Shown piece by piece: positions 1-57,297 of a stretch of DNA of 64,000 bases. Both the position numbers and the translations under genes were made by a program. The DNA lies in assembly GCA_965178125.1 (NCBI GenBank), contig OZ237746.1, forward strand, positions 1,054,001 through 1,118,000, in the 5' to 3' direction. The notes under the pieces are model-generated. The model worked only from the letters and a program-made list of their open reading frames with translations, was not told the DNA's origin and did not search any database. Position 1 is the stretch's first letter. Each line of letters begins with the position of its first letter. The stretch comes from Bilabrum cf. latius (lineage: Eukaryota).

Positions 1-39
1 ACCTGCACCTGCACCTGCACCTGCACCTGCACCTGCACC
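1..39 (+). repeat. (ACCTGC)6 hexamer microsatellite encoding (Gly-Ala)n in the minus-strand gene
   Basis: Directly visible; reads GGT GCA in the frame of the minus-strand CDS. Confidence 0.85.
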
Positions 40-16039: not shown

Positions 16040-16426
16040 AATAATACAATGTGCGGGTGACTGGCGCGATAGATCGGACAGATTCTGAATGAACCGCCGA
16101 CTAAGCTCGAAGCACTTGCTGCGTGTGGGAACCGCAGGAGTTCTCGTTGGTTGTGTCGCTAATCGCGTATACACCGGTGTGGTCGCAAGAGACCGTAATA
16201 AATAATCCAGCTATTCAAAGGGTGGATCTATTTAACCCTTCGAAGTGCGACAGCGAGCGAGACGAAAGAACTCGCATCAAATCGGATTTTTCAATCGTCA
16301 CCTCGGCCGAAATTGCACGGAACTTGGGATCCGAGACGGATTACAAAGCAGAGAGTCAGGTCGTCCAGGCAAGCCTTCGCACGGGGTGATAGCACAGTGC
16401 TTTGGATTATATCTTAGTGGGCTACC

Positions 16427-35441: not shown

Positions 35442-35472
<31 letters not shown>

Positions 35473-37149: not shown

Positions 37150-37392
37150 TCGGCCGAGGGAGGGGAATGTAAGGGTGGAAAGAAGAGGGGAAAAGTTTTG
37201 GAAAAAAAGGCGTGGCTCACTGCGAGGCCAGATGGGGGTGAGCTCGGGTGCACCAGATCGGACCCCAGCTGCCGGCCCGGGCGGTCCGTTCGTTCGGTTC
37301 CGCTACGCGGACGAAAAGAGCTTCTGTGCCGAGGAGGGAAGTCATTGTCCCGTCGGCAGCATCGCTGCCCGACCAATCTATTTCTTGTTCAC

Positions 37393-38580
37393 ATGTCATC
37401 CATGGATCAATTTGCCAAGATTCACGCCGGCATCGTGCAGCAATGCGCGGCTCCTCCCGAGATCGCCGCGGATCTGCTGCTGCCCGAGTACGGCTGCGCG
37501 CCGGCCTCCCTTCCGTCCAGCACGGCAGCTGTTCGGGTAGAGCTGCCTCGAACGGTGTGCGGCGCTTTGGCGCGTGTGGTCGTGAAGAGCCTCGTGGAGC
37601 GCGATGCCGTTCGCCGGTACGGGCCGGCTGCTTCGTGGGACCCGAGCGTGCGAGCGGCAGCGCCGGCTGCCGAGCCGTTGGCCGCACCGTCGGCAGAAGG
37701 AGCAGCACTAGAGGAGATCGATTCGTCTGCGTCGTTTCGGATGTCGCCGAGGATACGTGAGGCGCGCCTGCGGGCCACGATGGCCGCACGGTCAACTGCC
37801 GTCAAGGTCGCTGCGACCGCGAAGGACCACGTCGAGATTGCGTTCCCCTCCGCGCTCACCCTTGAGGGTGTCATGTATGGCGTTGTCTCTTCCTTTGCGG
37901 AGACCTGCACGGAGCCCATCCAAGACGCGATCCGTGACGCCCTGGACGCTTGCGAGCTCGAGTGGCAGCGCGCCGACGAGGTCGCATCGGCTCGCGGGCA
38001 CCCCCACCACGCGGAATCCAAGCAAGTGCCTGCCGGCGGCACCGTGAAGCAGCGCAGGCGCAGACGAGCCCGCCAGCGCCGCATGTCGCACAGCGTGCTC
38101 CCTTGGCCGAGCCAGCACTACCGGGAGGCGGTGGCGTGCGCCAGGCGAGCCCGCCTCGTGTTCAAGTTCGCGGGCGTGCGCGAGTACCTGCGGTCCCCGG
38201 GGAGGACCGTGGCGGGCACAGAGGCGGCGCAGGCGGCGCTGGAGGTGAACAGCGGCGCCCTCGTTCGGATGGTGGCGCTCACGCACGGGGAGGCGGCCCG
38301 CCGGGAGGTGAGCGTGGCGCTGTCGAGCGGGGAGAGGAGGGCCCTGCGGAGGTCCCTGGCGCTGCCCATGCAGGTCAAGGTCAGAGTCAGAGGAAGAGAA
38401 AGAGAAAGGGGAAGGGGAAGGGGAAGGGGTAGGGGTAGGATTGCAGGTGCGGGGCAAGAGCAGGTGCAGCCGCCCGCCCTGCCCAGGCAGAAGGAGACGA
38501 GAGAGGAGGAGAAAGTGGAGGAGGGGGAGGGGAGAGAATAGATCACCACGGGCCCGCGGATCTCGGCGGGACTGTAGGAC

Positions 38581-38613
<33 letters not shown>

Positions 38614-41600
38614 CGCAGCGAGCCGAGTGCGAAAGCGAGTGCGCCTCCCGGTCTGGCCTCCAGGGGCAGGGGCAGGGGCAGGGGCAGGGGCAGGGGCAGC
38701 ACCATGGTGGTGGTGGCGCCCCCCGTCACTGTGCCCCGGCTGCTGCGGTCCATCCGGGGCCTGCTGCACCCCTCCCCGCTGGCAGGGATAGAGGACGCTG
38801 ACCCGACCGCGGCCGTGTACGGCGCGGCCCCGGCGTCCATGCACGTGCCCTGGCGCTCCGTGAGCTGGCCGCTCCGGGTGAGGGTCCGGCGGCTCGTGGG
38901 CCTGGGGCGCGCGCTCGCCATGGCGGCTCTGGCGGACACGGCCAGGATCGGGGCCTCCCCGCCCGTGGACCCGCAGACGCACAGGGAGGCGCACGGGGAG
39001 GCAGACAGTTCCGATTCCGGATCCGACGGAGAGGAGGACGGGGGTGCTGAGGAACACAACGGGGAGGAGCCCTTCGTGGGGGGCGACAAGACCGGGGCGG
39101 CGGGCGCGGGGGGCGGGCACCGTCCTGCAGCAGGCGGCCACTCCCACTCGCGGGGTGTGTCCTTCGGCGAGGCGTCCTCGGTGGGGTCTTGCGGCGGTGG
39201 CGGGGACGGGACGTGGGTCGATGGGGCCCGGGGGGGTGTCCCGTCCGTGGGTGGGCTGGTCCGGCTGAGTTCCCTGCGAGGGAGGGCGTTGTTCTCTAGC
39301 CTAGGGGGCGCCAGGGCCACAGCCAGCTCTCGGTTCCTGCTGCCCGTGGTGGACGAGGGCGTGGGCGTGGGGGCGGGCGTGGGGGCGATTGCGAGGGGGA
39401 TGAGCTACGGGCCGAGCACGGGGGCGGGGCTGGGGCTCGGGCTCGGGGGCGAGACGGTGCACGGGACGTGGTCCGGTCGATTGCCGCTGCCTGGGAGGCA
39501 AGGTCCCGGCCCAGGCGGCAGCGAGGGGGGGTAGGGTCTGGCCCTGGCCCTTTCGTCACCCCGGCGCGCCGTCAAGTCGACCGAGGGCGCCCTGCAGCAT
39601 CACGCGCACGCGCCCATGCTGCTGGGCGCGACCGCCTCCCGTGGGGCCTCCTTCGGGCGGTCCTTCGGGCGAGCGAGGCAGTCGATGATGTCCGGGGCGC
39701 AGCTGGGCCTGGGCCTGGGGCTGGGGCTGGCCCACCTGGATTCCTCCGCCGATTTCCTCGTCAGGGGCGGGACCTCCGGGTCGCTGACCCCGGGGTGGGA
39801 TGCCGCCTCAGGGGCGGGATCGGTCTCCTCTCCGGGCGGGCCCCATACGCCCGGCCACGGCCACATGCACCGCCAGCACAGCTCCTCGTCGTCCTCCTTC
39901 GCCCCGCACCCCCTGGTCCGGAGGTCTCCCTCGAGATACGCGATGAGCTTCAGCGGCAAGATGGTGCAGCTGTTCGACAGCGCGCTGGACTCGGCCTTGG
40001 ACGCAGTGCAGGGCCAGGGCCAGGGGCAGGGACGGGGACGGGGGCAAGGCGCGGGAGCGGGCGTGCCCCCGCCCCTCACGCCTGCCAGCCGCGTGGCGGC
40101 CGCAGTGCAGTCCACCGGCGTGTTCCGCAGCAAGGCTGTGGACACGCTGCAGAAGGCCGCGCTGCCGGCGGTGACGAGCGTCATCGTGCGGGTGCACCTG
40201 CGCGCGGGGGGTCAGGAGGTGCCGGGCACGAGGGTGGAGACGCAGCCCTTCCCCGTCTCGGACAGCGCGGTGGCTGCTGGGGGCGACCTGGAGGCGGCGC
40301 TGGGGCGGCAGCGACAGCAGCGCACGTCGGGGTCCATGCGGCCGGTGCTGCGTCCGGCCTTCACCGTGACGCCCGCGGGGGGGTCAGGGGGCCTCAGCGC
40401 AGAGCTGCAGCCCTCGCTGCTTGTGCGGGAGGACGAGGACGAGGGGGGGCTGGAGGAGGGGGAAGAGGAGGGGGCTGGTGGCGGAAGCAGCGCTGGCGGA
40501 CGGGGAAGGGCAGGGGGCGCGCACAAGAGAAGAGGATCAGGAGCAGCTGCGGCCTCATGCTGGAGCCCTGACGCCGACGTGCTGCAGCTGGACGACGTGA
40601 CGGCCGGGGAGTGGCTGTGCACGCGCATCCCGCTGGGCCAGGTCCCGCAGGAGAGCGTTCTCCTCGTGGAGATCGTGGGCATCTGCGATCTGGGCGCTGC
40701 CTCGGAGCCCGTGCGGCTGGCCGCGGCCTCCCTCCCCCTCGCGGACCACCTGGGCCGGCTGCGGTCGGGCAGGCACAGCGTGCGCATGTGGCCGGGGCAC
40801 CACGCGCGCACCACCGCGGGCCTGCAGAGCTCCCCCCCGGGCCAGTACGCCGCCCCGCTCCAGACAGAGGCCCGCGCGCACTGGCTCGCGGGGGAGCCCG
40901 CCAGCCGACCGTACGAGGCCGTGGCGGCTGCCAGGGCGGAGATGGACCGAGCGGCGCGCGGGGGTGGTAACGGAGGTGTGGGGAGCGGAATGGGTCGTGC
41001 TGGGGGTGCGGGTGGCACTGCAGGGGACGCGCAGCTGCAGGCGGCCATGCTGCCGGCCCCCCACGCGATGGCACGATCCCCGCCCGCGCACCCGCTCTAC
41101 CGGTCCAGTCAGGAGGAGCCCAGCGCGAGGCCAGGGCCCGGGCCCGGGGCCGGGGCCGGTGTGGGCGGGGACGAGGAGGGGGGACCCCAGCAGGACAGCG
41201 GCAGGAGCGGGGGCAACGGTACGTGCGCCCCGCTGCGCGGTCATGATTCGTCCGAGGAGGGCGAGGAGAGCGGGTCTGTTGTGGAGCAGCTGCACGCGAT
41301 CGAGGACGAGGGGGACATGGACGCCCTCGAGAAAGAGATGCAGGCAGTTGCAGGGGCGGGGGCTAAGGCGGGGGCAGAAGCTGGTGCAGGCGCAGGGGAA
41401 GGTGCTGGGGAAGAGGGCGGCGGACCCCGTGGAGGTGGCATCGCCTCCCGCCGCCGCCCTCGCCGGTCGTCAATCCTGGGGCGCGAGTCCGGCGGGCTGC
41501 TGCACATCCAAGGGGGGTAGGGGCGCGGTCCTGGTGGTGCTGGGGAACAAGGCGCGTCCGAGGGCGATGGCAGCGGCAGCGGCAGCGGCACTGACTCTGA

Positions 41601-44600
41601 CTCGGAATCGGAATCGTCCGACGCCGGCGGTGCGCTGCAGGGTGCAGAGGCGGGTGGAGGCGCGGGGGACGTGCTTGACGAGGCCGACTGCATCGACGAG
41701 CAATCGGGCGCCGTGGCGGGCAACCTGCTGGGGGGCCTCCTGCCCTCCGTGCCCAAGGAGCACGCAGTGCAGTGGGACGCGGGGCTCTTCGACCTGGGCC
41801 AAGGGGTGCGGGCGGACCTCGAGATCGACGCGATCGGGCTGCCCGTGGTGGGCGACACGCCCCCGGTGACCATCGACACGGTGCGGAGGGCAGCCGAGCT
41901 CTCGCTGAGGAGGGGCGAGGCGGAGGTGAGGACGGCACTGCACGAGGGGGGCGAGGGCACCAGGCTGCGGCCGCAGGGGCCGGGCCCGCGGGGGTAGGGA
42001 AGCGGGGGCCAGGGGCGGGATCAGGGGCGGGATCAGGGCAGCGGCGGTGCAGGTGGGTCTACTGCCCCGAGGCGCGTCTCTTTGCTGGTAGGACACGGGG
42101 CCGGGGCCTCTGCGGGTGCGGGTGCGGATGGAGAGGGACCTGCCGGCCGGAAGCTCACCCTGCGGCACGCGCCGTCCTTCCAGAGCATGTCTCGCAAGCA
42201 GGTCATGGCGGTGTCCAGCAACCAGAGGCACCTCGTGGCCACAGAGTCGGCCCCGCCCCCGCTGCCGCCCAGTTCTGTTCAGTCCCCGGGCGACAGCGCG
42301 AACGAGCGGAAGCAGGGACAGCGAGAAGGTGACGGCGGCAGCGCCTCCTCTGTGCCCAGCAGCGGCGCGGCGAGGGCGGCAGCGGCGGGGACTGCCGCCG
42401 ATTCGAAGGCGAGGCAGGGGCACAGGGCGAGCGTGCACAGGTCGAGCGTGCTGCTGCAGGCGGACGCCCGTCTCCGTCGGAGCGCGTCTCTCTCTCTCGC
42501 TGGTGGCAGTGGCAGTGCCAGTGGCAGTGGCAGTGCTGGCGGGGGAGCGCAGCAGTAGGACAGCGGTGGGGCGGGCGGTCTCATCGCGCGGGCCAGCAGC
42601 GCGGCCGGGTCCGTACCCGGCGCAGGGTCAGCGTCAGGGGCGGGGTCCGGGGTGGGCTCGGCCGGCCGCGCCCCCTCCCGCAGCACAGCAGGAGGGGGGG
42701 GTGACGGAGACGGGGACGAGGGGACCACGGCCAGCGCAGCCGCCCGCTCCCAGGTGATCCGGGCACTCACCCACCGCACCGTGTTCCCCACAGACCTGTG
42801 GTGGATGCTCCCTCCCGCAGACCTGGCCGAGCCCGCTCCCGCCGTGCACGCCGTGGAGTACCCCCTGGGCGGACCCCTGGTGCCTGCCCCCAGGAGGGGG
42901 CTGGAGTGGCCGGGGGCAGCTCTGGCCCCGGAGGGGTCGCTGTCGGCCACCACCGCGGAGATGGACCCCGGGCTGCAGCTGCTGGCCGTGCTTGCCGCGG
43001 GCGGCGTGCGCGCCGGGCCTGAGAGGGCGCGGGTCTGCGGCCTGGGGGGAGGAGCGGCACAGGGCGGTGGTGAAGGCAACGGCGCGGGCTCTCCGCTGCT
43101 CCTGCACGCCGCCACGGCCTTCTGGAGCGTGCCCGCGGCCGTGCAGCTGTTCTCCAGGTGCGACGTGCCGCACCACCTCGCGAGCCACGGGCCGAGGCCG
43201 CTTGCCTCCGTGGGCCTGCAGCTGCGTGCCAGCGACCTCTCGGGGAGGTGGTCGAGCCTGGCCCAGGGATCTGCCGCGGGGCTGCCGCAGGCTTGGTTCG
43301 TCCCTTCCCCGGGAGCAGGAGGGGCTGGAGGAGCGGCTGGCGGTCTCGCTGCGACGGGGCTGGGGGGACCCACGGGAGGGCAGCAGCAATCCCCCCCCGC
43401 GGGGGCCCTGGTCACCCTCGTGGCCCGTCCTCACCCTCGCAAGGGGCACCGCGGGGACGGAGACGAGGTGGTGCTGCTGCTGACAGTGTGGACATTCGGG
43501 CAGCAGGGGGGGGTCTCGGACGAGGACGCAGATGTTGGCGCGGCGACTGGCGTGCGGGACTCCGTTGGCAGCAATAGAAGCAGCAGCACGAGCCGTGGGG
43601 TGGGCGCGTCGGTGGGCGTGCAGCACGGCCCTCACGCGGCCATCCGCGCGATGCTGGCGCCCCCGCCGCTGGGACAGGCGGCCGGTTCCTTCGCTCGGGC
43701 CATGTCCACCTCGTAGCTCTCGAGGTCCCCGGGCATACCCGTCATGTGCGGCCTGTACGAGGTGGCGCTGCAAGGCGCTGCACTCAGCCAGCAGCTCGCG
43801 GCGGCCGGCGAGGCCCCGCCCGGCAGTGCCAGTGACCGGGGGATCCACGCTGCAGGCGAATCGTCTGCGCCGGGCGGCGCTCACGCAGCCGGCACGCCCG
43901 TCGTGGGGGCCTCGGACGCGCTGGTGCCCGTGGCGTCGTCGGGCGCGGGTGTGGGCACCGGCGGTGTGGGCGCCGGTTTAGACACCGCTGGCGGCGCTAG
44001 CAGCAGCAACAGCGTCACGCACGGCAGTTCCGGGCTCCTGGGCGACGTGCTGGGCGGCACGGGCGGGGCGGCGGCGGGCGGGGCGGTGCGCGTGGCCGTG
44101 GTGCGGTACGGCTGGCTGCGCAAGCTGGGCGCGACCTCGCTGTCTCGGTGGAAGCGCCGTTGGTTCGTGCTGTCCGAGCAGCGGGGGTCCGTGAGCTACT
44201 ACACGTCCAAGCTGCAGCAGACCCCCCGCGGCGTCATCCCGCTGGCCTTCACCGAGGTGAGGAGGCAGCCGGGCCGCAACGAGACCTACCAGCGGATCGT
44301 GGGCAGCACGCGCAAGACGCTGGTGGCCTACTGCTTCTGCATCGAGGCGGCCAGCCGAGGGGCCAGCGCGGCGCGGCGCGGGGGCGGGCGCGCGTACTAT
44401 TTGTACACGGACACTCGCCAGAGCATGGACCAGTGGATCGACGCCATCGCCACCGTGAGGGACTCGGCCGAGGCGAGGCTGGCGCAGACTCTCGGTGTGA
44501 CGAGCAAGGTGCGGGGCAGCAAGGGCCAGGCCAAAGCCGAGGCTGCGGGCGCGGCCGTGGCGAGCTCGCTGGACATTGCCACCAACTCGAGCGACTACCC

Positions 44601-47600
44601 CGCCGTCGACTGGCAGGGACAGGGGCAGGGCCAGGGACACGGGCAGCACGGCGTGTCCACGATGCCCCGTCTGGATCTGGCGCTGCAGTCGCCCCCGCCG
44701 CACGGGGGGGCTCGGTTGCGGTTGCGCGGGGACGGGGGCGGGGCCGCCTCTGAGGAGTTCAACCCCAGGGCCAGCACGCGGAGCCTGGGGAACTAGGGGA
44801 GGCAGCGGGCCCTGCGGCACCACGCCACGGCGGGGGAGCGGGTGCTGGCTGGCACCGGCGGCGCTTCGCCGTCCTCGCCCTCCTCCTCGTCGCAGAGGGC
44901 CCGGCTGCGGCCTGGCACTGGGGCCGCCCGGCTGCTACTCGACGCGGGGAGGTCCCCGGGCCTTTTCCTGGAGGGCGAGGGGGTGCTGGGCGGCGGGGGC
45001 CCAGGGGGAGAGGGCGAAGAGGATCAGCAGCAGCAGCAGCAGGCGATGACCTTCATGGAGCGGGCGAGGGCGAGCACGGTGTCCGGCGTGGGGCGGAGGC
45101 AGGCGGGCACGGGCGCGGGCTCGCGCGGCGCCGGGTGGGGAGGGTCTGGTTCCGCCCCCGCGGCCATGACGGTGGAGCAGGCGATCGAGGAGGCCCTCGT
45201 CAGGACCGGCAGCGCCGACCCGCCCGTGCCCCCCAGCTGGGCCACTCTGTTCGCCACTCCGGCCCCGGAGCAGCCCCCCCAGCTGGTGCTGGTGCGGCAG
45301 AGCGGGTTCTTCGGCGGCAGCTACGCGCAGACCCGCGCCCCCGTCACGGAGCGGGTCACCACTGGCCCCTGGGTCTCGTTCGGCGGCATGGGGAGCGGGA
45401 GGCAGGCGCGGCCGGCGCGCCGATTCGCGGAGCGGTTCGTGTACGACCACTGCGGGGCCCTCGGTCTCTCCCGGCGGCTGGCGGCGGCCCTGGCCTACCG
45501 CGGGACGGACGTGAGCGCGGCCATCGCCGCCATTTTGAGGGAGACGGGGGCCGGGGCGGGCGGGGGAACAAGGGTCGCGGAGCTTGCAGAGGCGGCGGGG
45601 CGGGCGCGCCGCCGCGGGAGCCTCATGCAGTCGGGGCGGGCCCTCAACCGGTCTGGCAGCATCCGGCGGATTCCCTCTCGCAGGGCAAGGATCGGGGCGG
45701 CGCTGGGCCTGGGGGAACAAGGCGGGCGAGGAGGTGGGGCGGGGGAGCAGGACGGAGGGGAAGGGGAGAAGGGAGGCGCGGCGGGTGCCCCCAGCCTGCA
45801 GCGCCGTCTCACCGCCCACGGCCGGGCCTCCCGCCGCGACGTGGCCACGGTGCGGCCCAGCGACAGGCTCGGTCTCGCGCTGCACGGGCACGGGCACGGG
45901 CATGGGGCCGGGGGGAGCAGCGCCAGCGGTGGCGGCGGGTCCGTGGGTGGATCTGCGGGGGTGAGGCTGGGCGGCTCTCCGGGGGAGCAGGTCCACGGGG
46001 GCGGGGGCGGGTCCGGTGCAGGGGAGCACGAGGGCAGCGGCGGGTACACCTCCAGCGACGGCGTGGGTGCCGGGCGGGAGGGCGGCGGCGGGCCTGGCGC
46101 GTTGGAGCGCGGTGCCGGTGCCACTAGCGAGGAGGGCCGCAGCGTCAGCGGGCCGGTGCGTCGGCTGGGGCGGCGCGCCTCGGCGAGCATGACGTCCCCT
46201 CACAGGCACGCGAGACACGCAGCCCGCTTCCGCGTGCCCGACGCCTCGCTGCTGCTGGCGCGGGCGCAGGGAGCCGCGGGCGGCGACATGCGCAAGCAGA
46301 GGGTCAAGACCACGTCCAACAGGGTGGGGACGGGGCTGCGGCCGCACACGTGGGGCATCCAGGGGCGGCTGGCGGGGACGGTGGCTGCGCTGTCCCGCGC
46401 GAGCACCGCCACCTCCCGCGCTGGCCAGCATGCGGCGGAGCACGGGAGCGGGGCGAGCGCGGGGGGCACTCCCGTTCTGTCTGAGGAGGGCCTCCTGGGC
46501 GGGGATAGCCTCGACTGGACCGTCGCGCTGGAGGCCATGCTGGACAACGATCCCATGGCGCTCCCGTTCGGGGCCTGCGGACGGCGGGCGGCGGAGCGGC
46601 GGGAGGAGGCAGAGAGGGAGGTGGAAGAGCGGAAACAGAAGGAGACGGAAGAACGGCTGCGAGAACAGATAGAGAAGCAGGAGCAGCAACCGAAAGTCGG
46701 GAAGGGGGGCCCCAGCGTCGCAGGAGAGGGAGAGGGAGAGGGACATGGTGGTGAGCTCGTGGCTCTCCCGAGCCGGCTCGAGCGGGTGCGGCGAGCCACC
46801 CTCTCCAGCGGGAGCGGACCCTCGCCCATGGCAGCCGGCGCGTTGGGGTTCTCGAATGGCGGGGCGGGCTTCAGCCCCGTGCGCCGCTCGCACAGCCGGC
46901 TGCTCGCGCTCCAGCAGCAGGGAGGGGGGGTCTCTCCCGCCGGTGGGGGGGCGGGTGCGGGCGGCCGCTCGACGCCGCCCCTGTCTCCCATCCACCGGCC
47001 GAGCAACGGCGGCAGCGGCGGTGCCGGGTGGGGCGATGGGTCTTCCTCCCAGGGCGGCTCTCCCGGCCGCAGGGGTGCCCGCGCCCGGCGGGGCACCCGC
47101 ACTTTTAGGTTTGGAGAGCTGGCCAGGACGAGCACGGGCCAGGGGTCCATGACAGGGAACAGCCCGAACGGTGGCGCGGGCGGCGGCTCTCCTTCCTTGG
47201 GGGCATCCTCATCCCCGGCTGGGTCGCCGTGGGGAGCCAGCGCCAACGGGCCCGCCGCCATGTCTCCGTCTCCGTCCTCGCCTCTGGCACCGCCCCCAGG
47301 CACATCCCCGCTGGTCCTTGCTGCCTTGGTGCGGTCCAGGGGTGGAATCCTCGGGCCTGGGCTGGGAGCAGCGGGAAGTTCCCCTGGCGGGGGCCCGCGA
47401 GCGAAGGTGCAGGGTGCTCGGCAGGAGGGGGAGGAGGAGGGGGAGGAGGGTCACCGCCAGCGCTTCGGCTCCATGGCGGCCCCGAGGTCGTCCTCCAGAG
47501 ACCTCCTCAAGCGGGCGGGCGATCGGACTGCCGTGCCGAGCCCCCTGGCGCTGACCAACGGGACCAGAGGGGGCCAGGACCAGGGCTCCGAGAGCTCCGC

Positions 47601-50211
47601 CAGCGGAGCGGGTGGGCCGCGGGAGGAGACCGCGTCCTGGAGCGGCCCCATCGCTGGCCGAGGGGTGGGAGCGGCAGCGGGAGCGGGAGCGGGGACCGGA
47701 GTGCAGCGGGATGGGGCCGACGGCGAGATGCCTCGCCTTGACCTTGTCTCGGGGGCGGCAGGTGCGGGTGCCGGCACCGCCGGGGCGCTGCAGGCCTAGC
47801 AGCAGCAGCAGCTGCCCGCGGCGGTGCTGCGGGTGCTGGGCGGCACGTCCCTGCTGCAGCTGAGCGAGTCGGACAGGGCGCAGATCGTCCGGTGCGGGCA
47901 CCTGCTCAAGAACCGTCCTTCGGCGCTGGGCAAGTACATGAGGAGCGTGGCGTGGGTGGACGGCGCGCAGGCCACCGCCGCCCTGGGTTTCCTGTACCGG
48001 TGGCGCACGTATCCCCGCTCGCAGGCCGCTCTCAACCTTGAGCTGCTGGACGCGGGGTTTGGGAACGCGCACGTGAGGCACGTGGCATGCTCGGGGCTCG
48101 ATTCCATGGGGGACCGCGCCTTCTCCGAGCTTGTTCCCCAGCTGGTGCAGGCCCTCAAGGCCGAGCCGCTGCTGGTGAACTCGACGTGGGACCTGCTGCT
48201 GCGTAGGTCGGTGCGGTCCCCCGCGGTGGTGGGCATGCCCCTCTTCTGGTCGCTGCACGTGGAGGCATCGTCCAAGTCGCTGTGCTACCCCCGCTTCAGC
48301 AGCTACATCGCGCTGCTCTGCGCCGCGCTGCCCGTGTTCGTCCGCCGGATCCTCGCCCAGCAGCTGGACGTGTGGGGCCGCAGGGGCGCCTTCGCGCGGG
48401 TGTGTCTTGCGGTCAAGACCGCCAAGGCGCGGGGGCTCCGGCGGGCCGACGTGTCTGCGCTCGCTCGCCGGCTGTTGCGGAGCGTGGCCCGGCGCCTGCC
48501 CTCCCGCATGGTGCTGCCTCTGGACTGCCGCGTGGTGGTTGGGCGGCTCATCCCCGAGAAGTGCAGGGTCATGGACTCGGCCAAGCTGCCCATCTGGCTC
48601 GTGTTCGAGTCGCCGGGGGACGACGGCGACGAGGACGAGGACGACGAGGACGACGAGCATGCGGAGGACGAGGCCGAGGCGACGAGCAGCGCCCCGGCGA
48701 CCGCTACCGTGGCCAGCGAAGGGGAGGGTAACGGCACCGTCGGCCCGGAAGACGCCGAGCCGGCCCGCGGCGCCGTGCTGGCAGGTACAGGTCTCGCGGC
48801 CCCCGAGCCACCGAGAGATGGAACCCGTGCGCCTGCCTCCGCCTCTGCCTCGATGCAGCCGCGGCCGGGGGGCAGCTGGGCCGAGGCCCGCGTGCAGGAA
48901 GGCATGGCGAGGGCTGCTTCGGCGGACTGGGCGGGGCTTTGGCTCGGTGACAGCGCGCTGGCCGAGGATCTGGTCCGCTTCGAGGCCGACGAGAAGGACC
49001 AAGGGCAGGGACAGGTGCAGGGGCAGGGCCGCCAGCGGTCCACTAGCAGGATCAATCGCATCGTGGGGGACTCTACGGGCAGCGCACGGCGGCTGCGGCG
49101 GCGGCACGACGGCGAGGAGCTGGAGGATGCGGTGCTGGCGGCTCTGCCCGTGGACGGTGACGGTGACGGTGACGGTGCAGGGGCGGAGCGGGCGGGGGCG
49201 GCAGAGGCCGAGACCACCGGCCCGCGAGTGGCTCTGCCAGCTCCAAGGCCGAAAGAGGAGTAGCAGGGCCACGGGAGTGAGCGCAAGGAGGAGGCAGCCG
49301 CTGGAACCCAGACCGGCGCAGCGGGCAACAGCAGTGGCGGCGGGAGCTCTGGCCGGGTCCAGGTCCGCCGGCACCGCAGGCGCCCGGAGGAGCGCGCGGC
49401 GAAGGGCCGCGTGATCATCATCTTCAAGTCCGGGGACGACATCCGCCAGGACACGGTCACGCTGCAGCTGCTCCGGTCCATGAACGGCATGTGGAGGGAG
49501 GCGGGCGTACCGGTGATCCTGACCACGTACAGGTGCGCGCCCACGTGGGACCTGGGTGGGCTGGTGGAGGTGGTGACCAACGCGGACACGGTGGCCACGA
49601 TCCAGACCGAGATGGGAGGCAAGAACACGGGCGCGTTCTCCGACGAGGTCATGCAGAAGTGGATCGAGAAGCACAACGGGCCGGAGGGATCCCCCCGGTT
49701 CGAGGCCGCGAGGGACCGGTTCATCCGGTCCTGCGCGGGCTACTGCGTGGCGACGCACGTGCTGGGGATCGGGGATCGGCACAACGACAACATCATGGTC
49801 AAGCGGACGGCGGAGTTCTTCCACATCGACTTCGGGCACTTCCTGGGGAACAAAAAGTACCAGTTCAACATCCTGAGAGAGAGGACGGCCTTCGTGCTGA
49901 CCCCCGAGATGGCCGTGGCCATGGGGGGGGAGGGCTCCGAGGGGTACGAGCGGTTCCTGCGGCTGTCGTGCGAGGCGCTCCAGGTGCTGCGGAGGAGGGC
50001 GGACGAGCTGGTGAACCTGCTGCTGCTGATGCTGCCCTCTGGCATGCCCGAGCTGAGGTCCAGGGACGACATCGGGTTCGTCTCGGAGATGCTCGCCCTG
50101 GGCCGCTCCGACGAGGAGGCAGCGCTCATGTTCCGCAGCGAGGCCAGCAAGGGACTCAAGGACGTCTTCAAGCGGGTGGACAACCAGATGCACATCCTGG
50201 CACACGCATGA
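37393..50211 (+). CDS. Giant class I-like phosphoinositide 3-kinase (~4272 aa) with C2, PH, helical and kinase domains; 10 in-frame TAG (38539, 38575, 39532, 41518, 41995, 42556, 43714, 44794, 47797, 49261)
   Basis: Ten standard-code ORFs from the track lie in one frame separated only by TAG. RBD-like LVFKFAGVREYL, C2 WLCTRIPLGQVPQESVLLVEI...LADHLGRLRSGRHSVRMWP, PH YGWLRKLG...WKRRWFVL...MDQWIDAI, helical ELVPQLVQALKAE, and kinase KCRVMDSAKLPIWL, IIFKSGDDIRQD, SCAGYCVATHVLGIGDRHNDNIM, FHIDFGHFLG. Stop TGA at 50209. Confidence 0.85.
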
Positions 50212-50808: not shown

Positions 50809-53289
50809 TCACCGACCCCTTTCCAGCGCCTCTAGGATCAGCACGACGCAGTCGTCGTGCTCGCCCAGCACGGCAGCCCGCAGCGCGTCCACCCGAAGGC
50901 GCCGCCCATCGGCTGCTCTCACTTCGCCGCGGCGGGTCAGCCCCCCCGCCAGCACGCCCAGTCGCAGCCGCTTGGCCAGCTCCAAGGGCCTGCCCTCGCT
51001 CGCAGCCTGGAACACCAGCTTGGCATCCCGCTCGGCGTCGCCTCCGCGCCGCCAGCGAGCCAGCCAGCCCCTCCTCCTGCTCGCCTCCCGCCCCAGGATC
51101 TCGTCGCACCGCTTCAAGCAGCCCCGCCAGCCCGCCCGGCCGCGGCCGTGCTTCCTGATCTCACGCACCGCGGCAGAAGGGGGCAGCAGCCCGCCCTCGC
51201 GGTCCTGCTCCAGCAGCGGCTGCAGCACCGCGAGGCACGCACCCGGGCTGTCCGACGCCACCGCGTTGTGCAGGGCCTCCGCGGCGTACGCAAGGACAGC
51301 CCGCCCACGCAGATTGCGGCTGTAAGGGCCATCGAGCATGCGGAGGGCGCATGCAGCGCGAGAAGGTACCGCGGGGAGCTGCATCATCCAGAGGTTGACG
51401 ACCGGGGTGCGGTCGGAGTGGAGCACCTTGCTGAGAGCGTCTCCCGATCCCGATCCCGATCCCGATCCCGATCCCGAGTCACGCGCGCTGCTGCACGGGC
51501 CCAGCATCGGAGCGTGCTGCTGGATGACGCTCGAAAAGGCCCTGTCCCTGCAGGCCTCCCTCAGCACGTCCTTCCTGATAGATCGGATGCAGGGGCATGC
51601 CTGCAGCAGACCCGCCACCATGCCAGGGTCCAGCAGCGGATCTATCATGCAAGGGATGCTCGCCAGCGAGCTGTTCTTGCGCAAGGACTCGTACAGGGCT
51701 TTGCCGTGCACACGTCCCACCCGGTCCGCTGCTGGCCGCGCGCCTGGTTCTATGCTGCCGAGCTCGAGCGACTGCAGGGAGTGGTTGCGCTCCAGCACGT
51801 TGCGCAGAGCGGGGACGCACGCCGCTGCGCAAAAGGCAGAGCCCCTCGTCGTCAGGTCCAGCTCCAGCAGGGTGTCGTTCCCGGCCAGAGCCTCGAGGAT
51901 CCCCGTCGCTGCCCCAGCGGGGATGTGGTGAGAGCGCAGGGTGAGTCGTTCCAAGGTAGAGTTGGACCGTAGGAGGGACGCGAGCGCTTCGCCCCCCCTC
52001 TCTTGCATACTGAACCGGCCCGCGCGCACCTCGAGCAGGGAGCGATTGCCAGCGAGCACCCTGAGAACGGCCTCGGTGTCTTCGTCCGAGCGCGCCACGG
52101 ATGCCAGGTCGAGCGACTGCAGGCAGCAGCTGGCGCTCGCGATGCACGGCGCCAAGGCGTGGCAAGGGCTCCCAGCAGCCGTCGAACTGCCTACTGCACG
52201 GAGCCGAGGCAGGGGGATCACCTTGCGCGGCACGACCAAGGACACGATGCCAGCTCTTTTCCTCCCGATCCCGGCGCTGTCGTTCGTGCAGCACACCCTG
52301 GCGAGGTGCTCAAACGCATCTTCGGCGCGCGCCTGCACTTCGCCCATATCGAGAGTCCTCAGCCGGCTGCGGCTGTCTGGAGACAGCAACCCGTCTGCGA
52401 TGGCCTCGCACAGGTCGAGAAGCGCGGGCATGGCCCATGGACGGGTCCGGCGCTGCGTGCGGCCCGACAGGACCAAGGAAGCGAGGCTCGAGCTGGCGGC
52501 GAGGGCACCCTGCATGGCCGACAAGGCCTCGGGCGTGGAGGGGCGCGCGCTTGTGACTTCCTGCAGGGACGGAGCCGCGCCGATTGACTTCCAGAGGGCC
52601 GCGTCGTCTCCCTCCTTGGCGCCGAGGAGGCTGGCCAGCTTGAGCCGCTGCAGGGTCGGGCACCTGTCCAACGCGACTGCGAGCGCCTCCAGAGGGGCTG
52701 TTCCCGACAGCTCGAGGGACCTTAGAACCGGCGACGAAGCCGCACTTTGTAACAGCCATGGCATGCCTGGGTACGTATGGCGTAGTACGGTAATGCGCAG
52801 CGCAGTCAAGCGCTTCAGGCTCTGCAGCGTCGTGGCGAACAGATGCTGTGAGAACCGAAGATCTGGGGTGCCGTCGCACATCGACTTTGCGGACAGGTCC
52901 AACCGGAGTTTCCTCAAAGAGCCTCGTCTTGCTTTTAGAGCTTGGCACACTTGTGTGGCAGTTGGCGCGCTTGAGTTGGCAGCAAAGTCGAGATCCAACA
53001 CACGCAGTCTTCTGGGATGCTTCGCCAGCTCGATCAGAAATGGATCGTATTCCCCGCGCCTGTTCCCATCAATGATCCCAGAATTCGAAGAAATTTTCAT
53101 AACCTGCAACCTGGACGCCATTGAGGCTACCTGCAAAGCCATTGCCGCATTCTTGTGGCCAATCTCGTCAAGATGAAGCTGGGCTTGGCACACCCGTCTA
53201 AACCCTGCAGGTGCGTCTGCATGCCTTCTCAATTGGCCTCGTGTCGTTAAATGCATAATACACGCATCGTTTCGGTCCCATAATTTCAT
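50809..53289 (-). CDS. Leucine-rich repeat protein (ribonuclease-inhibitor-like repeats) with ankyrin-like C-terminus, 826 aa
   Basis: Repeated LxxLxL and NxxLxxLxL units (LRVLDL, LRSLEL, LQSLDL, NRSLLEV, NSTLERLTL, NDTLLELDL, NHSLQSLEL). The C-terminal ALHNAV and DALRAAVLGEHDDCVVLIL segments resemble ankyrin repeats. Stop TGA. Confidence 0.75.
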   Translation of the reverse strand: MKLWDRNDACIMHLTTRGQLRRHADAPAGFRRVCQAQLHLDEIGHKNAAMALQVASMASRLQVMKISSNSGIIDGNRRGEYDPFLIELAKHPRRLRVLDLDFAANSSAPTATQVCQALKARRGSLRKLRLDLSAKSMCDGTPDLRFSQHLFATTLQSLKRLTALRITVLRHTYPGMPWLLQSAASSPVLRSLELSGTAPLEALAVALDRCPTLQRLKLASLLGAKEGDDAALWKSIGAAPSLQEVTSARPSTPEALSAMQGALAASSSLASLVLSGRTQRRTRPWAMPALLDLCEAIADGLLSPDSRSRLRTLDMGEVQARAEDAFEHLARVCCTNDSAGIGRKRAGIVSLVVPRKVIPLPRLRAVGSSTAAGSPCHALAPCIASASCCLQSLDLASVARSDEDTEAVLRVLAGNRSLLEVRAGRFSMQERGGEALASLLRSNSTLERLTLRSHHIPAGAATGILEALAGNDTLLELDLTTRGSAFCAAACVPALRNVLERNHSLQSLELGSIEPGARPAADRVGRVHGKALYESLRKNSSLASIPCMIDPLLDPGMVAGLLQACPCIRSIRKDVLREACRDRAFSSVIQQHAPMLGPCSSARDSGSGSGSGSGSGDALSKVLHSDRTPVVNLWMMQLPAVPSRAACALRMLDGPYSRNLRGRAVLAYAAEALHNAVASDSPGACLAVLQPLLEQDREGGLLPPSAAVREIRKHGRGRAGWRGCLKRCDEILGREASRRRGWLARWRRGGDAERDAKLVFQAASEGRPLELAKRLRLGVLAGGLTRRGEVRAADGRRLRVDALRAAVLGEHDDCVVLILEALERGR

Positions 53290-53411
53290 GTTGCCGGGGC
53301 CGGGATTCGAATGGTGTGGGAGTCGCCTTCGTGGACTTGGCCTGTCCGGTGATGTGAAGGCTCCGGGTGCGACTCGGACTAGTAGGTTCTCTACTGCTGG
53401 GCCGCAAAGTG

Positions 53412-54506
53412 TTATCTTCCCGCCCCCGATGCCGCCGCAACCCCCCCGGCGCCAGCACCCTTGTCCGCCTCAGCACCGACCACCTCACCGCCCCCACTCT
53501 CGCCTTTGTCCTCTTCCTCGTCCTCATCCTCCCCGTCATCCAGAGCCACCACGCCATCCTCCTCCCCTACCAATGGACCCCCATGGGCATCGCTCGAATC
53601 CTCCGCTCCTGCCGCTGTGCGACCTCCAGCACCATCGCGAGAGTCACCCGCCGCGCCCGATTTACCCCTGCCACCGCCCCTGGCCGCCGCGTCCTCGCCA
53701 AGGCGAGCATCGAGCACTTGCTCCACCGCCAGCAGGAGCGACTCGATCTGGGCCGCCAACACGGCGCCCCGCCGCGCCACCCCTTCGCCAGGTGCCGGCG
53801 CTCGTCCCCCGAGGCCGCCGCTTCCCCTCCTGTCCTCTTCATCGCCCGCGGAGCTGTGCCTCTCCAGCTCGCCGAGCGGTGCGAGCAGCGAGCGGAGCGC
53901 GGGGAGCAGCCGGCGCGCCTCCCAGCGGGCCGATCGGCTTTGCGAGAGGTCCACGGGATCGCTTGCGCCGCTAGAGTCGCGCTCTTCAATCTCTTGGACC
54001 TCCATGAGCAGGTCGGAGGACGCAGAGACCACGCTGTCGGAAGCAGACAGGCCGATCTGGATGTGGCTGCGATCGGCGGATTGGCCGTACAAGCGCGCAA
54101 GCAAGTTCGAGGGTGGGCAAGGGCGATCGTAGGGCAAGGCGCGCGCATCAATCAATGGGGCAATCCCTCACTCTTCGAATCTAGAGGCCAGAAGAGAAGC
54201 AGCCATGGCTGCCATAGGAATCACCCACGCGCTCGGCGTTTCGCAATCCGGCCAGCGCGGCAAGTCCCCGCCTTTTCCTGAAGATCCCGAACCAACGAGT
54301 GAGTACAGGCCATCTGCTACGATGCAGGCGTCTTTCGATGCGGCAATCGTCTTCAAAACGGCAAGAAGTGCAGCCTCTGGGTCCGCAGCAGATACCCAGG
54401 CGCTTGAAGCATGCTGCGCTGCCCTCAGGCGGGCAGACAGCACGGCAACATAACTCGCATGCCCGGATGTAGCGCAGTCACGAAAATCAGCGGCTTCTAC
54501 GCTCAT
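53412..54506 (-). CDS. Hypothetical helical protein with acidic tail; intron 54067-54171
   Basis: Exon 1 MSVEAADF...SRFE joins via GTGAGG...TCGCAG in frame to DHIQIGLSASDSVV... Stop TAA at 53412. The start could instead be 54215. Confidence 0.6.
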
Positions 54507-54639
54507 TGATCCTGACGGGGACAGGCGCCAACGTCCCTTTGCGCAGTTGCCACAGTGCGGTGCGACCAGCTCTCCGGGGTTGCTGCCAACGACAGCAGTT
54601 AGGGAGGAAGGGCAGCACAGATCGCCCGATCTTGGCGGT

Positions 54640-57297
54640 ATGGCAAGCATACTCGACAAATCCGTCGGAGGGGCCGCGCTGCTGCTCCTTTCGACGGTAG
54701 GGCAGCGCATCCTCACCTTTGTTTTGAATGCGTTGATCACGAGGGCCGCTGGGGCCAAAGTTCTAGGATTTGCATCGAATGACATGGAGCTACTTCTTGC
54801 TACGATTTTGTTTATTACTCGGGAGCCTTTTCGGCTGAGTGGGCTGCGGTGTTCGCCTTCGAACCGACGCAGGGCGCAAAGTCTTGTGAACCAATCTTGG
54901 GCGCCCGTACTTGTTGGAACAGTCGCAGTCAAGGTTGCAATTCTAGTCATATTGTTCGGATTTTCGTCGCCTTCCTCTGAGCTGGGGCCGGACTCGGAGG
55001 CGAGCATGACCGAAGCAAGCGCCTCCAGCCAGCGATCCGCGACCGCGCTCATGTTTGTCCTCGGTGCTTGGCTCGAGCTGCTTGCCGAGCCCATGTACAT
55101 CCTCACGTAGTCCGAATTAATGTACGAGCTGCGCGTGCGGGCCGAGGGGCTTGGCGTGCTGCTGAAGAGCGGCCTGGCCTACGCGCTCGTCGTGCACGGT
55201 GGCCTGGGTCCGACCGCCTTTGGGGTGGCGCAGCTGGGCTACGGGGCGGCGGTGCTGGGCGTCTTCCTGTGGCACTTTGCCAGTGGGCGGGCCCGGGGCC
55301 TGCAGAGCATGCAGATGCTTCGATCCAGCCCTGGGGCGCCGGCCGGCACGTTCCTCGGGGTGCCGCTGCCCGCCCCGCTGGAAGGCGGCGAGCAGGTGTA
55401 GGTGCAGGAGGAGGAGGAGCAGAACAGATAGGAGAAGGATGAAGGTGACAGCGAGGTGGAGACGGATGGACAGCGACATGAGGTTGGCAAGGACAATGGG
55501 GCCGCCCCTGGCTGGGTGCTGGCTCTGTCCCCCCTGTGGGCCCCCTGGGTGGACCGTAGGGACGCGGGGCTCATCGGGGCGCTGTCGCTGGAGGGGTTGG
55601 CCAAGCACTTCATCACGCAGGGGGACAGGATCGTGCTGCTGGCCTCGGCGGACGAGGAGACGAGGGGCCTCTGGGCGGTGGTCTCGAGCTACGGGAGCCT
55701 TGCCCCCCGGCTGCTGTTCCAGTCCATCGAGGAAGCAGCCAGGGGGCTCTTCGGGAGGATCGCGGCGGAAACGGAGGGAACAGAGAGAGGGATGAAGCAA
55801 GAGATAGAGCAAGAGAATGGGGAGGATGCGGGGAGTGGAGAGGGCGGCGCGGCAGACTAGGAAGGTTAGGAACAAGAGAAGGGCAAGGAGGCCGCCGAGG
55901 GATTGACAAGGGCCGCCGAGGTAAGCACTACCGCCAGCGCCAATGCTAATGTCAATGCCAGGACAAACAGCAACACTCGCTCGAGCCGCATGGCGGGTGC
56001 GCTGGAGATCGTGATGTGGACCGTGTCTCTGGTGGGGCTGCTCTTCGTGGCCCTGGGCAGCAGCTACACCGAGCTGGCCACCAATGTAGTCCTGGGGCCG
56101 CGGTTCCCCCACAGCGGGACGATGCTGTCGTACTACTGCCTGTACGTGCTCTTCATGGCCATCAACGGGGCGCTGGAGAGCTTCGTGCACGCCGTGGCCT
56201 CGCACGAGTACATCGCGAGCCTGGCGTGGCAGCTGGCTCTGTCCTCTGCACTCTTCGCGGGTGCCTCCACGCTGGCGCTGCGAGCCGGCGGGGGCATCGT
56301 GGGCGTGGTGCTGGCGAACTGCTTCGCCACTGCGGTGAGGATCGGCTTCGCGCTGTGGTTTGTGGCGGGGTGGTTCGGGCGGAGTGCCAGTGCCAGTGCC
56401 AGTGCCAGTGCCAGTGGAAGGGAGGAGGGGCAGGGAGACAGGGGCGGGGTAGATGAGGCGGGTAGAAGCCGCGATAGTGGTGAGGAGGATGGGAGTGGCG
56501 GACATAAGAACAAGGCTGCTGCACGAAGCGATGGTGCGGGGACTGGCGAGGACGTGGGCGATGCAGGCAGCGCGAGTAGAAAGGACGGTGAGGATGGCAC
56601 CGGGTCGAGGCAGAGGCAGAGGTCGGGATCGAGGTCAGGGGGGGATACGCGAGGTACAGCCCCGGCTCAGGACAAGGACAAGGACAAGGACAAGGACAAG
56701 GACGAGGGCAGGACCCCGCCACGGTCGCTTTCAATGGGCCGCTTGCTGCCCTCCTTTCCCACCCTGCTCGCGATCGTCGCTGCGTTCTGCACCACGCACG
56801 CGTCCTGGGTCTGGTTCAGGGAGCCGGATCCGTGGGCGCTGGGCCCCGACGGTGGGGTCGGTGGCAGCGCCGAAGCTGCTGCTGCTGCTGCTGCTGCTGC
56901 TGCGCTGCACACCCCCTTCGGCGCGTGGGCCAGTCCCGCGCGCCCTGTTCTAGCTCGCATGGCGGCCAGCGGCATCCGGGGGCTCCCCGAGCCGCCACCG
57001 GGGTGCGGGTGCTGCCAAGAGAGCGGGTGTATTGTTCCCTGGAAGTAGACGGAGATAGGGGCAGATTTGTCTGAGGGCCGGCGGGAGGGCGAGAGCGGTG
57101 GATAGGGCGGCGAGCATCAGTGGGGGCAGCCCCTGCACACCGCCCGGGGGTCCTGGTGGGGCTGCAGGCTGCGGCACCTGGCAGTGGGAGCGGGCGCGTT
57201 CGGCCTAGTGGCGATGTCGCTGCTGCTGAACGACAGGCAGAGGGTGCTGGACTCGGCGAGGGCGCTGCGAGAGGGCAGGCAGGCTGCCAGGGGGTGA
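54640..57297 (+). CDS. RFT1: RFT1 (Man5GlcNAc2-PP-dolichol translocation protein, MOP superfamily), ~885 aa; 7 in-frame TAG (55108, 55399, 55429, 55858, 55867, 57046, 57103)
   Basis: RILTFVLNALITR, TILFITREPFR, LELLAEPMYILT*SELMYELRVRAE, KHFITQGDR, YGSLAPRLLFQSIEE, LSYYCLYVLFMAINGALESFVHA and GVVLANC. The final TM RLRHLAVGAGAFGLV follows the last two TAGs. Stop TGA at 57295. Confidence 0.92.

What the first reader, a model, noticed from the sequence alone, without database searches (positions are those of the whole stretch)
55069..55146. TAG sits on a conserved glutamine column of RFT1
Seen in sequence: WLELLAEPMYILT-TAG(55108)-SELMYELRVRAE. From my recall of the family, human RFT1 reads ELLGEPFWVLAQAHMF and yeast reads ELLSEPFFIVNQFMLNY, with Gln seven residues after the E of EP, exactly where the TAG falls. 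A stop here would remove most of the TM helices of an essential protein. This is the best single site for amino-acid identity.
Basis: partly seen in the sequence, partly recalled or inferred. Interest (0 to 1): 0.85.

Follow-up and report, generated by a model that had tools for sequence, protein, structure and literature searches.

The report
TAG codon read as glutamine
An in-frame TAG "stop" inside the RFT1 gene of a GC-rich protist sits exactly where relatives have glutamine, which shows that this organism reads TAG as an amino acid, most likely glutamine, and not as a stop.

Summary
Window 55069-55146 translates as written, with TAG at 55108-55110. It is codon 157 of an 885-codon RFT1 gene (54640-57297, Pfam Rft-1 E=6e-74) that holds 7 in-frame TAGs and ends in TGA.

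In 153 homologues with a residue there, the column is Gln in 96, Leu in 15 and Glu in 0. It is Gln-dominated, not invariant. A relative's DNA (L001) aligns without gaps and has CAA at this codon. One of L001's own in-frame TAGs aligns with a window CAG, and another with CGA.

No intron fits, and the TAG is identical in contigs from two studies. A relative about 93% identical shows mostly synonymous differences on both sides of the TAG.

Across the window, 42 TAGs lie in frame in 9 of 14 ORFs; the ORFs end in TGA (12) or TAA (2).

Best reading: a nuclear code with UAG = Gln and UAA/UGA = stop, in a probable stramenopile. No tRNA, eRF1, RNA or peptide evidence was available. This is a new member of a known kind of code variant.

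The parts
54640..57297 (+). RFT1 gene, single exon, 885 codons plus TGA stop. It holds 7 in-frame TAG codons and several low-complexity inserts.
   Evidence: Pfam Rft-1 E=6.2e-74. My own family HMM scores 463 bits over residues 3-748. Collinear with the relative's gene L001 to the last residues.
55108..55110 (+). The TAG of the finding: codon 157, on the Gln-majority column 7 residues after the E of the EP motif.
   Evidence: Opposite CAA in L001. Unchanged in contigs of runs X1 and X5.
55087..55092 (+). Codons E150-P151, the near-invariant EP motif that anchors the column.
   Evidence: E in 148 and P in 152 of 153 occupied rows.
55399..55401 (+). In-frame TAG, codon 254, in an acidic low-complexity insert.
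55429..55431 (+). In-frame TAG, codon 264, in the same insert.
55858..55860 (+). In-frame TAG, codon 407, in the insert between the two Pfam-matched stretches.
55867..55869 (+). In-frame TAG, codon 410.
57046..57048 (+). In-frame TAG, codon 803, in a variable loop between the conserved blocks GCGC..CIVPW and WWGCRLRH.
57103..57105 (+). In-frame TAG, codon 822, in the same loop.
57295..57297 (+). TGA, the true stop of RFT1. L001 also ends in TGA, two codons after the last residue aligned.
   Evidence: GC3 falls to 0.58 in the 59 codons after it.
55030..55032 (+). CAG (Gln131) of the window, which aligns with an in-frame TAG of the relative (L001 274-276).
   Evidence: SSQRSAT against PMXRSVT; sequence.

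Best explanation
The window is nuclear DNA of a GC-rich, intron-poor eukaryote, probably a stramenopile. In it UAG is an ordinary sense codon, most likely for glutamine, while UGA (mostly) and UAA end genes.

The TAG at 55108 is therefore codon 157 = Gln of a full-length, functional RFT1. The codon probably arose from CAG by a synonymous C-to-T change.

Shown: TAG is translated through in many genes; it sits where relatives have Gln; TAA and TGA do not occur in frame.

Inferred, not seen: the decoder is a tRNA-Gln with anticodon CUA, and the release factor eRF1 no longer recognises UAG efficiently.
For: (1) The gene is real and needs readthrough. Pfam Rft-1 gives 250 bits. Conserved blocks lie on both sides of all 7 TAGs in one frame, up to a C-terminus shared with L001 and P0001.

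(2) The family column is Gln in 96 of 153, with E 0 and K 0. HMM emission is Q 0.28. Only 8 of 408 columns are 50% or more Gln.

(3) Nearest relatives. L001 (a 2544-nt metagenome contig, 56% GC) has CAA at this codon in a gapless 123-nt alignment, with 11 identical residues before and 5 after. P0280 from another source reads EPMYILTQSELMY. In the other direction, L001's TAG at 274 aligns with the window's CAG.

(4) The TAG is not an error. Contigs of two studies (X1, X5) cover it with 0 differences. In a relative about 93% identical (X6), 26 of the 31 listed differences in codons 3-171 are synonymous, including 3 downstream of the TAG, and none is listed at 55108-55110. That relative's predicted protein P0016 starts at M161, as expected if a standard-code gene caller met a stop at 157.

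(5) Window-wide pattern. There are 42 in-frame TAGs in 9 of 14 ORFs. Seven of them lie between the C2, PH, PI3Ka and kinase domain hits of one 4353-codon PI3K frame, and 3 lie between domain hits of CLU. The ORFs end in TGA (12) or TAA (2), and GC3 falls from 0.72-0.96 inside them (RFT1 0.76) to 0.47-0.66 after the stop.

(6) The base after TAG varies: G 19, C 9, T 8, A 6 of 42, counted by hand. There is no readthrough motif.

(7) A naive likelihood over two family columns and three near-relative pairs gives Q 0.98 and R 0.014.

(8) TAA is not co-reassigned. L001 has 5 TAG and 0 TAA in frame, with CAG and CAA at 10 each.
Against: Only one window TAG lies on a conserved column, so the amino-acid call rests on very few sites.

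One of the three alignable TAG/residue pairs is not Gln: L001's TAG at 1639 faces Arg (CGA) in the window and Arg in P0001. That family column is variable (R 25, P 20, A/K/Q 16 each of 146).

Three of the four closest full-length homologues have L, T and T at column 157.

A neighbour-context classifier on 38 TAG sites ranks Glu slightly above Gln (2.95 nats), so sequence context does not separate them.

In the hypervariable acidic insert, P0016 and P0279 place L or H opposite codon 254, and G or E opposite codon 264 depending on gap placement. That alignment is unreliable.

No tRNA gene lies in the window and no genome is held. No run on record as RNA holds the stretch, and there are no peptide data.

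The zero in-frame TAA/TGA count in the window is partly by construction, because the ORFs were delimited by those codons.
Confidence: 0.85

Rival explanations
1. TAG is a sense codon but stands for another amino acid, such as Glu, Lys, Arg or Leu, as in other UAG reassignments.
For: The context classifier ranks E first, with Q, G, D and K within 5 nats. Many TAGs lie in E/K/G-rich tracts. L001's TAG at 1639 faces Arg. Column 157 has L in 15 of 153.
Against: Column 157 has E 0, K 0 and R 3 of 153. The closest relative has Gln in an identical 16-residue context, and the reciprocal pair is also Gln. The combined naive posterior is R 0.014 and every other residue below 0.001. Context puts L, Y, S and W 18-35 nats behind.
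Confidence: 0.08
2. UAG is ambiguous: a stop that is read through at useful efficiency by a near-cognate or suppressor tRNA. That would be context-dependent stop/sense use, not a clean reassignment.
For: Nothing in the window excludes partial termination at TAG. TAG is rare (38 of 14,765 codons) and absent from the 5 ORFs without TAG, which include those with the highest GC3.
Against: There are 7 TAGs in one RFT1 and 10 in one PI3K frame, so even 90% readthrough per site would leave under half of the full-length product (my arithmetic). No common downstream context exists. None of the 14 ORFs needs TAG as its terminator. The TAG is kept in a relative about 93% identical under purifying selection.
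Confidence: 0.05
3. The mRNA differs from the DNA: either a short intron removes the TAG, or U-to-C editing restores CAG.
For: No RNA data could be laid on the gene, so editing cannot be excluded directly.
Against: The alignment to L001 is gapless, with TAG opposite CAA. Only 39 nt lie between the conserved P151 and R165 codons, and all 13 residues are present in homologues, so no intron fits. Editing at 42 sites in 9 nuclear genes would itself be unprecedented (my knowledge).
Confidence: 0.02
4. The gene is a pseudogene, or the TAG is an assembly or sequencing error or a strain-specific nonsense mutation.
For: A single in-frame stop, taken alone, would suggest this.
Against: Contigs from two studies are identical. 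The TAG is retained in a diverged relative that shows 26 synonymous against 5 non-synonymous differences. The distant relative L001 has 5 in-frame TAGs of its own at other places, yet an intact frame ending in TGA. The same pattern appears in 8 other ORFs.
Confidence: 0.01

Closest known systems
Nuclear code with UAG = Gln and UAA/UGA = stop, as reported for the fornicate Iotanema spirale, the ciliate Protocruzia tuzeti and two phyllopharyngean ciliate lineages (NCBI table 15 has the same assignments)
   Same: TAG is sense and aligns with Gln. TAA is not used in frame (0 against 5 TAG in L001, where CAA = CAG = 10). TGA and TAA terminate ORFs. The published cases were read as passages of the Discussion of PMC11687900.
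   Different: The lineage differs. The nearest named proteins are stramenopile: Nannochloropsis oceanica for RFT1 and Cafeteria roenbergensis for ATP sulfurylase. The genome is very GC-rich (0.60-0.755 per 2 kb). The tRNA and eRF1 parts of those systems could not be examined here.
UAR = Gln codes (NCBI table 6: many ciliates, Ulvophyceae, Hexamita, Streblomastix, Amoeboaphelidium)
   Same: A stop codon is captured for glutamine, presumably through a mutated tRNA-Gln anticodon. The list of lineages comes from PMC11687900, passages.
   Different: Here TAA appears to stay a stop. There is no in-frame TAA in about 15,500 window codons or in L001's 842 codons, and 2 of 14 ORFs end in TAA followed by low-GC3 sequence.
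UAG-only reassignments to other amino acids: an uncultured rhizarian (Leu), Scotinosphaera (Ser), the ciliate with UAA = Lys and UAG = Glu
   Same: UAG is uncoupled from UAA. Cases as listed in PMC11687900, passages.
   Different: Column 157 has L 15, S 1 and E 0 of 153, and the near relatives have Gln. These assignments fit poorly.
RFT1 (Pfam PF04506; named 'Man(5)GlcNAc(2)-PP-dolichol translocation protein RFT1' by UniRef)
   Same: A full-length match including the EP motif and the conserved KH.ITQGD and YGSLA.RLLFQ blocks.
   Different: About 885 residues, against about 540-720 in most hits. The extra length comes from acidic, Ser/Ala, Asp/Lys and Ala-run inserts. Seven codons are TAG.

Membership tests
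RFT1 / Pfam Rft-1 (PF04506) | Score above Pfam's gathering threshold | tested here: met
   250 bits against a cut-off of 23.8, E=6.2e-74.
RFT1 / Pfam Rft-1 (PF04506) | Match covers the whole family length, not only the part before the TAG | tested here: met
   My own HMM, built from 155 homologues, matches nodes 34-545 of 587 over residues 3-748, plus a C-terminal stretch. The gene is collinear with L001 and P0001 to the end.
RFT1 / Pfam Rft-1 (PF04506) | Role in N-glycan lipid-linked oligosaccharide assembly; essentiality | not testable with these tools
   Known from yeast and human work (recalled).
Nuclear code UAG = Gln, UAA/UGA = stop | In-frame TAG in several conserved genes, with homology continuing downstream | tested here: met
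   42 TAGs in 9 of 14 ORFs. Seven lie between the four domain hits of PI3K, and RFT1 is conserved past all 7 of its TAGs.
Nuclear code UAG = Gln, UAA/UGA = stop | TAG positions align with Gln in homologues | tested here: met
   Column 157 is Q in 96 of 153. TAG faces CAA and TAG faces CAG in two of the three pairs I judged alignable with L001; the third faces Arg. A fourth pair, window codon 822 against Ser in a gapped loop, was left out. Few sites, so met but thinly.
Nuclear code UAG = Gln, UAA/UGA = stop | TAA and TGA are absent in frame and used as terminators | tested here: met
   0 in-frame TAA or TGA in the 14 ORFs (partly by construction), against 13/16 TAA and 170/111 TGA in the two off-frames. 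The ORFs end 12 times in TGA and twice in TAA. L001 has 5 TAG, 0 TAA and only the terminal TGA.
Nuclear code UAG = Gln, UAA/UGA = stop | A tRNA with anticodon CUA and glutamine identity | not testable with these tools
   No tRNA in the window, no Rfam hit, and no genome held.
Nuclear code UAG = Gln, UAA/UGA = stop | eRF1 with altered stop-codon recognition | not testable with these tools
   eRF1 is not in the window, and no genome is held.
UAR = Gln code (table 6) | TAA is also used as a sense (Gln) codon | tested here: not met
   L001 has 0 TAA against 5 TAG, with CAA = CAG = 10. The window ORFs hold no in-frame TAA, while 2 ORFs end in TAA with GC3 dropping to 0.53 and 0.47 after it.

The most novel reading that the evidence does not exclude
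A whole clade of stramenopile protists uses a nuclear code in which UAG means glutamine while UAA stays a stop. The clade includes this GC-rich organism (about 68% GC), a relative about 93% identical, and a much more distant relative with 56% GC. No such code has been described for stramenopiles, and it would be one of only a handful of UAG-only reassignments in eukaryotes. The shared use by genomes of very different GC content would show that the change is old and is not maintained by GC pressure alone.
Probability: 0.4. Interest if true: 0.75.

Novelty: new member of a known kind. Interest (0 to 1): 0.6.

Why it matters
Annotation is the practical issue. Every standard-code gene call in this organism and its relatives is broken at TAG. 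The public protein sets already hold the fragments: P0016 starts at M161, P0014 at the same Met, and P0289 ends at the relative's TAG. So annotation, orthology and metagenome binning for this group are wrong until the code is set.

The biological issue is that UAG-only reassignments, with UAA kept as a stop, are rare in eukaryotic nuclei. The 2024 paper read here lists only a few. Another independent case, in a free-living and possibly culturable lineage with both GC-rich and GC-moderate members, would be a good system for two questions: how eRF1 separates UAG from UAA, and whether GC pressure drives codon capture.

Tried and rejected
- **Whole genome:** not held. No search for tRNA(CUA) or eRF1 was possible.
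- **RNAs in the window:** no tRNA or tmRNA and no Rfam family.
- **RNA evidence:** no RNA holder is listed for the RFT1 stretch. X5 and X9 are only guessed to be RNA; marks X5 'probably DNA' and X9 'a guess, not shown transcribed'. Nothing can be said on expression, splicing or editing from reads.
- **Solved structures:** no RFT1 relative in the PDB sequences.
- **Prokaryote genome contigs:** scanned for relatives; none found.
- **First metagenome query:** A narrower alignment (A3) then found one locus, L001. P0001's contig was not found.
- **Search for shorter proteins:** added only P0289, the relative's N-terminal fragment. No further sequence covers codon 157.
- **Neighbour-context classifier:** separates polar from hydrophobic residues but not Glu from Gln, so it was not used to name the residue.
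- **TAGs at codons 254 and 264 against P0016/P0279:** the insert is too variable to align.
absent from the 304 fetched proteins, so unverified.
- **Selenocysteine- or pyrrolysine-like special decoding:** rejected, because 42 TAGs lie mostly in low-complexity tracts of ordinary proteins.
- **RFT1 split into two genes at the TAG:** rejected, because six more TAGs follow and the frame stays conserved.
- **Literature searches for a stramenopile or bicosoecid nuclear stop-codon reassignment:** none found. Two papers that held the terms were opened and their mentions were unrelated. Supplements are closed and subscription journals are not covered, so absence from print is not proven.
Full report
**Observation.** The TAG is codon 157 of an ORF that starts at ATG 54640 and ends at TGA 57295-57297. 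The ORF has 885 codons and seven in-frame TAGs, at codons 157, 254, 264, 407, 410, 803 and 822. Read through, it matches Pfam Rft-1 at 250 bits, E=6.2e-74.

**The column.** A full HMMER search of 1.84 billion representative proteins gave 1600 hits at E of 0.001 or better, and the best 150 were returned. Together with the 13 hits, that gave 158 distinct proteins, which I aligned.
- At codon 157, 153 rows have a residue: Q 96, L 15, T 7, A 7, M 6, H 6, R 3, two each of V, D, G, N, Y and I, and S 1. There is no E, K or W.
- The anchors around it are near-invariant: E146, E150, P151, R165 and E169.
- An HMM built from 155 of these rows has consensus 'q' at this node. After HMMER's priors and weighting the emission is Q 0.28, followed by L 0.07, A 0.07, K 0.06 and E 0.06.
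- Only 8 of 408 well-occupied columns are 50% or more Gln, so a TAG landing on one by chance has odds of about 2%.
- The column is not invariant. Three of the four closest full-length homologues carry L, T and T.
- The window protein holds the majority residue in only 24 of 45 columns of comparable conservation.

On this evidence alone the case for Gln would be about even.

**Near relatives settle it.** The protein collections hold fragments of this gene from close relatives, cut where a standard-code gene caller met a stop.
- P0016 (86-98% identical, depending on the measure) and P0014 both begin at the Met four codons after codon 157.
- P0280, a member of P0014's 90% cluster from another source, runs across the site and reads EPMYILTQSELMYDLRVRAEG.
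- A metagenome scan returned the DNA of that type of relative: L001, 2544 nt, 56% GC.
- Window and L001 align without a gap over 123 nt, with TAG opposite CAA and 11 identical residues before and 5 after.
- L001 has five in-frame TAGs of its own, no in-frame TAA, and ends in TGA.
- Its TAG at 274 aligns with the window's CAG (Gln131).
- Its TAG at 1639 aligns with CGA (Arg) in the window and with Arg in P0001. That family column is variable: R 25, P 20, and A, K and Q 16 each, of 146.
- A naive likelihood over the two family columns and the three pairs (window codon 822 against Ser, in a gapped loop, was left out as too weakly aligned) gives Q 0.98 and R 0.014. It assumes independence and a flat prior, so I take it as 'strongly favours Gln', not as a measured probability.

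**Not an intron, an error or a pseudogene.**
- The gapless codon-for-codon alignment with L001 leaves no inserted DNA.
- Only 39 nt lie between the P151 and R165 codons, and homologues have all 13 residues there.
- Contigs from two studies (runs X1 and X5) cover 54612-56411 with no difference from the window.
- A third run (X6) holds a 1907-nt contig of a relative about 93% identical, with 96 changed letters and 45 gap letters over 54553-55865.
- Of its 31 listed differences in codons 3-171, 25 are at third positions and 26 are synonymous. Three of these lie downstream of the TAG. None is listed at 55108-55110, although rows on both sides are.
- Because 79 rows of that table were not shown, retention of the TAG in X6 is an inference. 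It is backed by P0016, which comes from a 1907-nt contig and starts at M161.

**The window as a whole.** I took the 14 long ORFs with coding-like base composition (high GC3); 11 of them have a Pfam match at or above its curated cut-off.
- They hold 42 in-frame TAGs in 9 ORFs.
- Seven TAGs lie between the C2, PH, PI3Ka and kinase domain hits of one 4353-codon PI3K frame. Three lie between the domain hits of a 2497-codon CLU frame.
- The ORFs end in TGA 12 times and in TAA twice. GC3 drops from 0.72-0.96 inside them (RFT1 0.76) to 0.47-0.66 in the 59 codons after the stop.
- In the two off-frames, TGA occurs 170 and 111 times, TAA 13 and 16, and TAG 54 and 26. In frame the counts are 0, 0 and 42. 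The in-frame zeros are partly by construction.
- After trimming likely leader sequence, TAG is 38 of 14,765 codons, against CAG 573 and CAA 56. That is about 6% of Gln codons if TAG is Gln (my arithmetic).
- The five TAG-free ORFs include those with the highest GC3.
- The base after TAG is G 19, C 9, T 8 and A 6 (hand count), so there is no readthrough context.
- In L001, if TAA were used like TAG I would expect about five TAA, since CAA equals CAG. None is seen. My Poisson arithmetic gives P of about 0.007. This points to a UAG-only change.

**Mechanism.**
- Shown: TAG is translated, and it sits where Gln is expected.
- Inferred from how all known stop-to-Gln codes work (established knowledge): a tRNA-Gln whose anticodon changed from CUG to CUA reads UAG. 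eRF1 has lost or weakened UAG recognition while keeping UAA and UGA. New TAG codons then arise from CAG by silent C-to-T transitions.
- None of the machinery could be examined. The window has no tRNA and no genome is held.

**Who it is.**
- The nearest named RFT1 is from Nannochloropsis oceanica (P0015's cluster).
- The nearest named ATP sulfurylase/APS kinase is from Cafeteria roenbergensis, at 58% identity.
- A brown alga also appears among the RFT1 hits.
- With 60-75% GC, very long single-exon genes and a radial-spoke protein gene, a heterotrophic flagellated stramenopile near the bicosoecids is my best guess. It rests on two gene comparisons and on recalled properties of Cafeteria genomes.

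**Comparison with what is known.**
- Passages of PMC11687900 list the UAG-only cases known in late 2024: Gln in Iotanema spirale, Protocruzia tuzeti and two phyllopharyngean ciliate lineages; Leu in an uncultured rhizarian and in some ciliates; Ser in Scotinosphaera; and Glu (with UAA = Lys) in one ciliate.
- The present case works like the Iotanema type. The assignments equal NCBI table 15.
- Five searches of the paper library found no report for stramenopiles. Two papers holding the terms were checked and were unrelated.
- The library lacks most subscription journals, supplements were closed, and the runs date from 2025. A description may therefore exist or be in preparation.

**Verdict.** The TAG is a sense codon on a Gln-majority column of a functional RFT1, and Gln is the best-supported meaning (confidence 0.85). 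As a kind of system it is known. The lineage appears new. The amino-acid call still rests on few sites and needs the tRNA, a genome-wide tally, or peptides.

Noticed in passing
window 37150-50211 (+): One open frame of 4353 codons carries C2, PH, PI3Ka and PI3/PI4-kinase domain hits in that order, with 10 in-frame TAGs and long Gly/Ser/Ala-rich inserts. It is an unusually large single-exon PI3K-like gene.
   Followed up: partly
window 8738-16231 (-): A 2497-codon CLU (clustered mitochondria / eIF3 p135) frame with 8 in-frame TAGs. The first, at ORF codon 7 (16213), lies upstream of the first Met of the frame and may be 5' leader. TAG codon 143 lies one residue before the CLU_N match.
   Followed up: partly
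window 5740-5745 (+): Two consecutive in-frame TAG codons inside a Lys-rich tract (GKGKK-TAG-TAG-VKKKKKKK) of an SR-25-like low-complexity ORF that ends in TAA.
   Followed up: no
window 34102-37149 (+): A fused ATP sulfurylase / APS kinase gene (PUA_2, ATP-sulfurylase and APS_kinase domains) without any TAG. It is 52-56% identical to bacterial bifunctional enzymes and 58% identical to the Cafeteria protein. Proteins labelled Symbiodinium sp. KB8 sit in the same 90% clusters as the Cafeteria protein and unnamed protist proteins, which suggests that assembly contains sequence from such a flagellate.
   Followed up: no
window 56383-56416, 56669-56707, 56875-56908: Hexanucleotide and trinucleotide repeats inside the RFT1 coding region, (AGTGCC)5.7, (AGGACA)6.5 and (GCT)11.7, encode Ser-Ala, Asp-Lys and Ala runs. 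In one search these places drew depths in the thousands from unrelated contigs, and the assemblies break there.
   Followed up: partly
window 1-40: The window opens with a perfect (ACCTGC) hexamer repeat of about 6.5 copies.
   Followed up: no
L001 1-2544: The relative's RFT1 has 56% GC against about 65% for the window's gene region. It lacks most of the window's low-complexity inserts but has others of its own. Its five in-frame TAGs are all at different places from the window's seven.
   Followed up: yes
window 3290-4609, 27099-28775, 29117-30268, 34102-37149, 50809-53469: The five ORFs without any TAG include those with the highest GC3 (0.89-0.96). This is as expected if TAG is a rare, disfavoured codon in highly expressed genes.
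   Followed up: no
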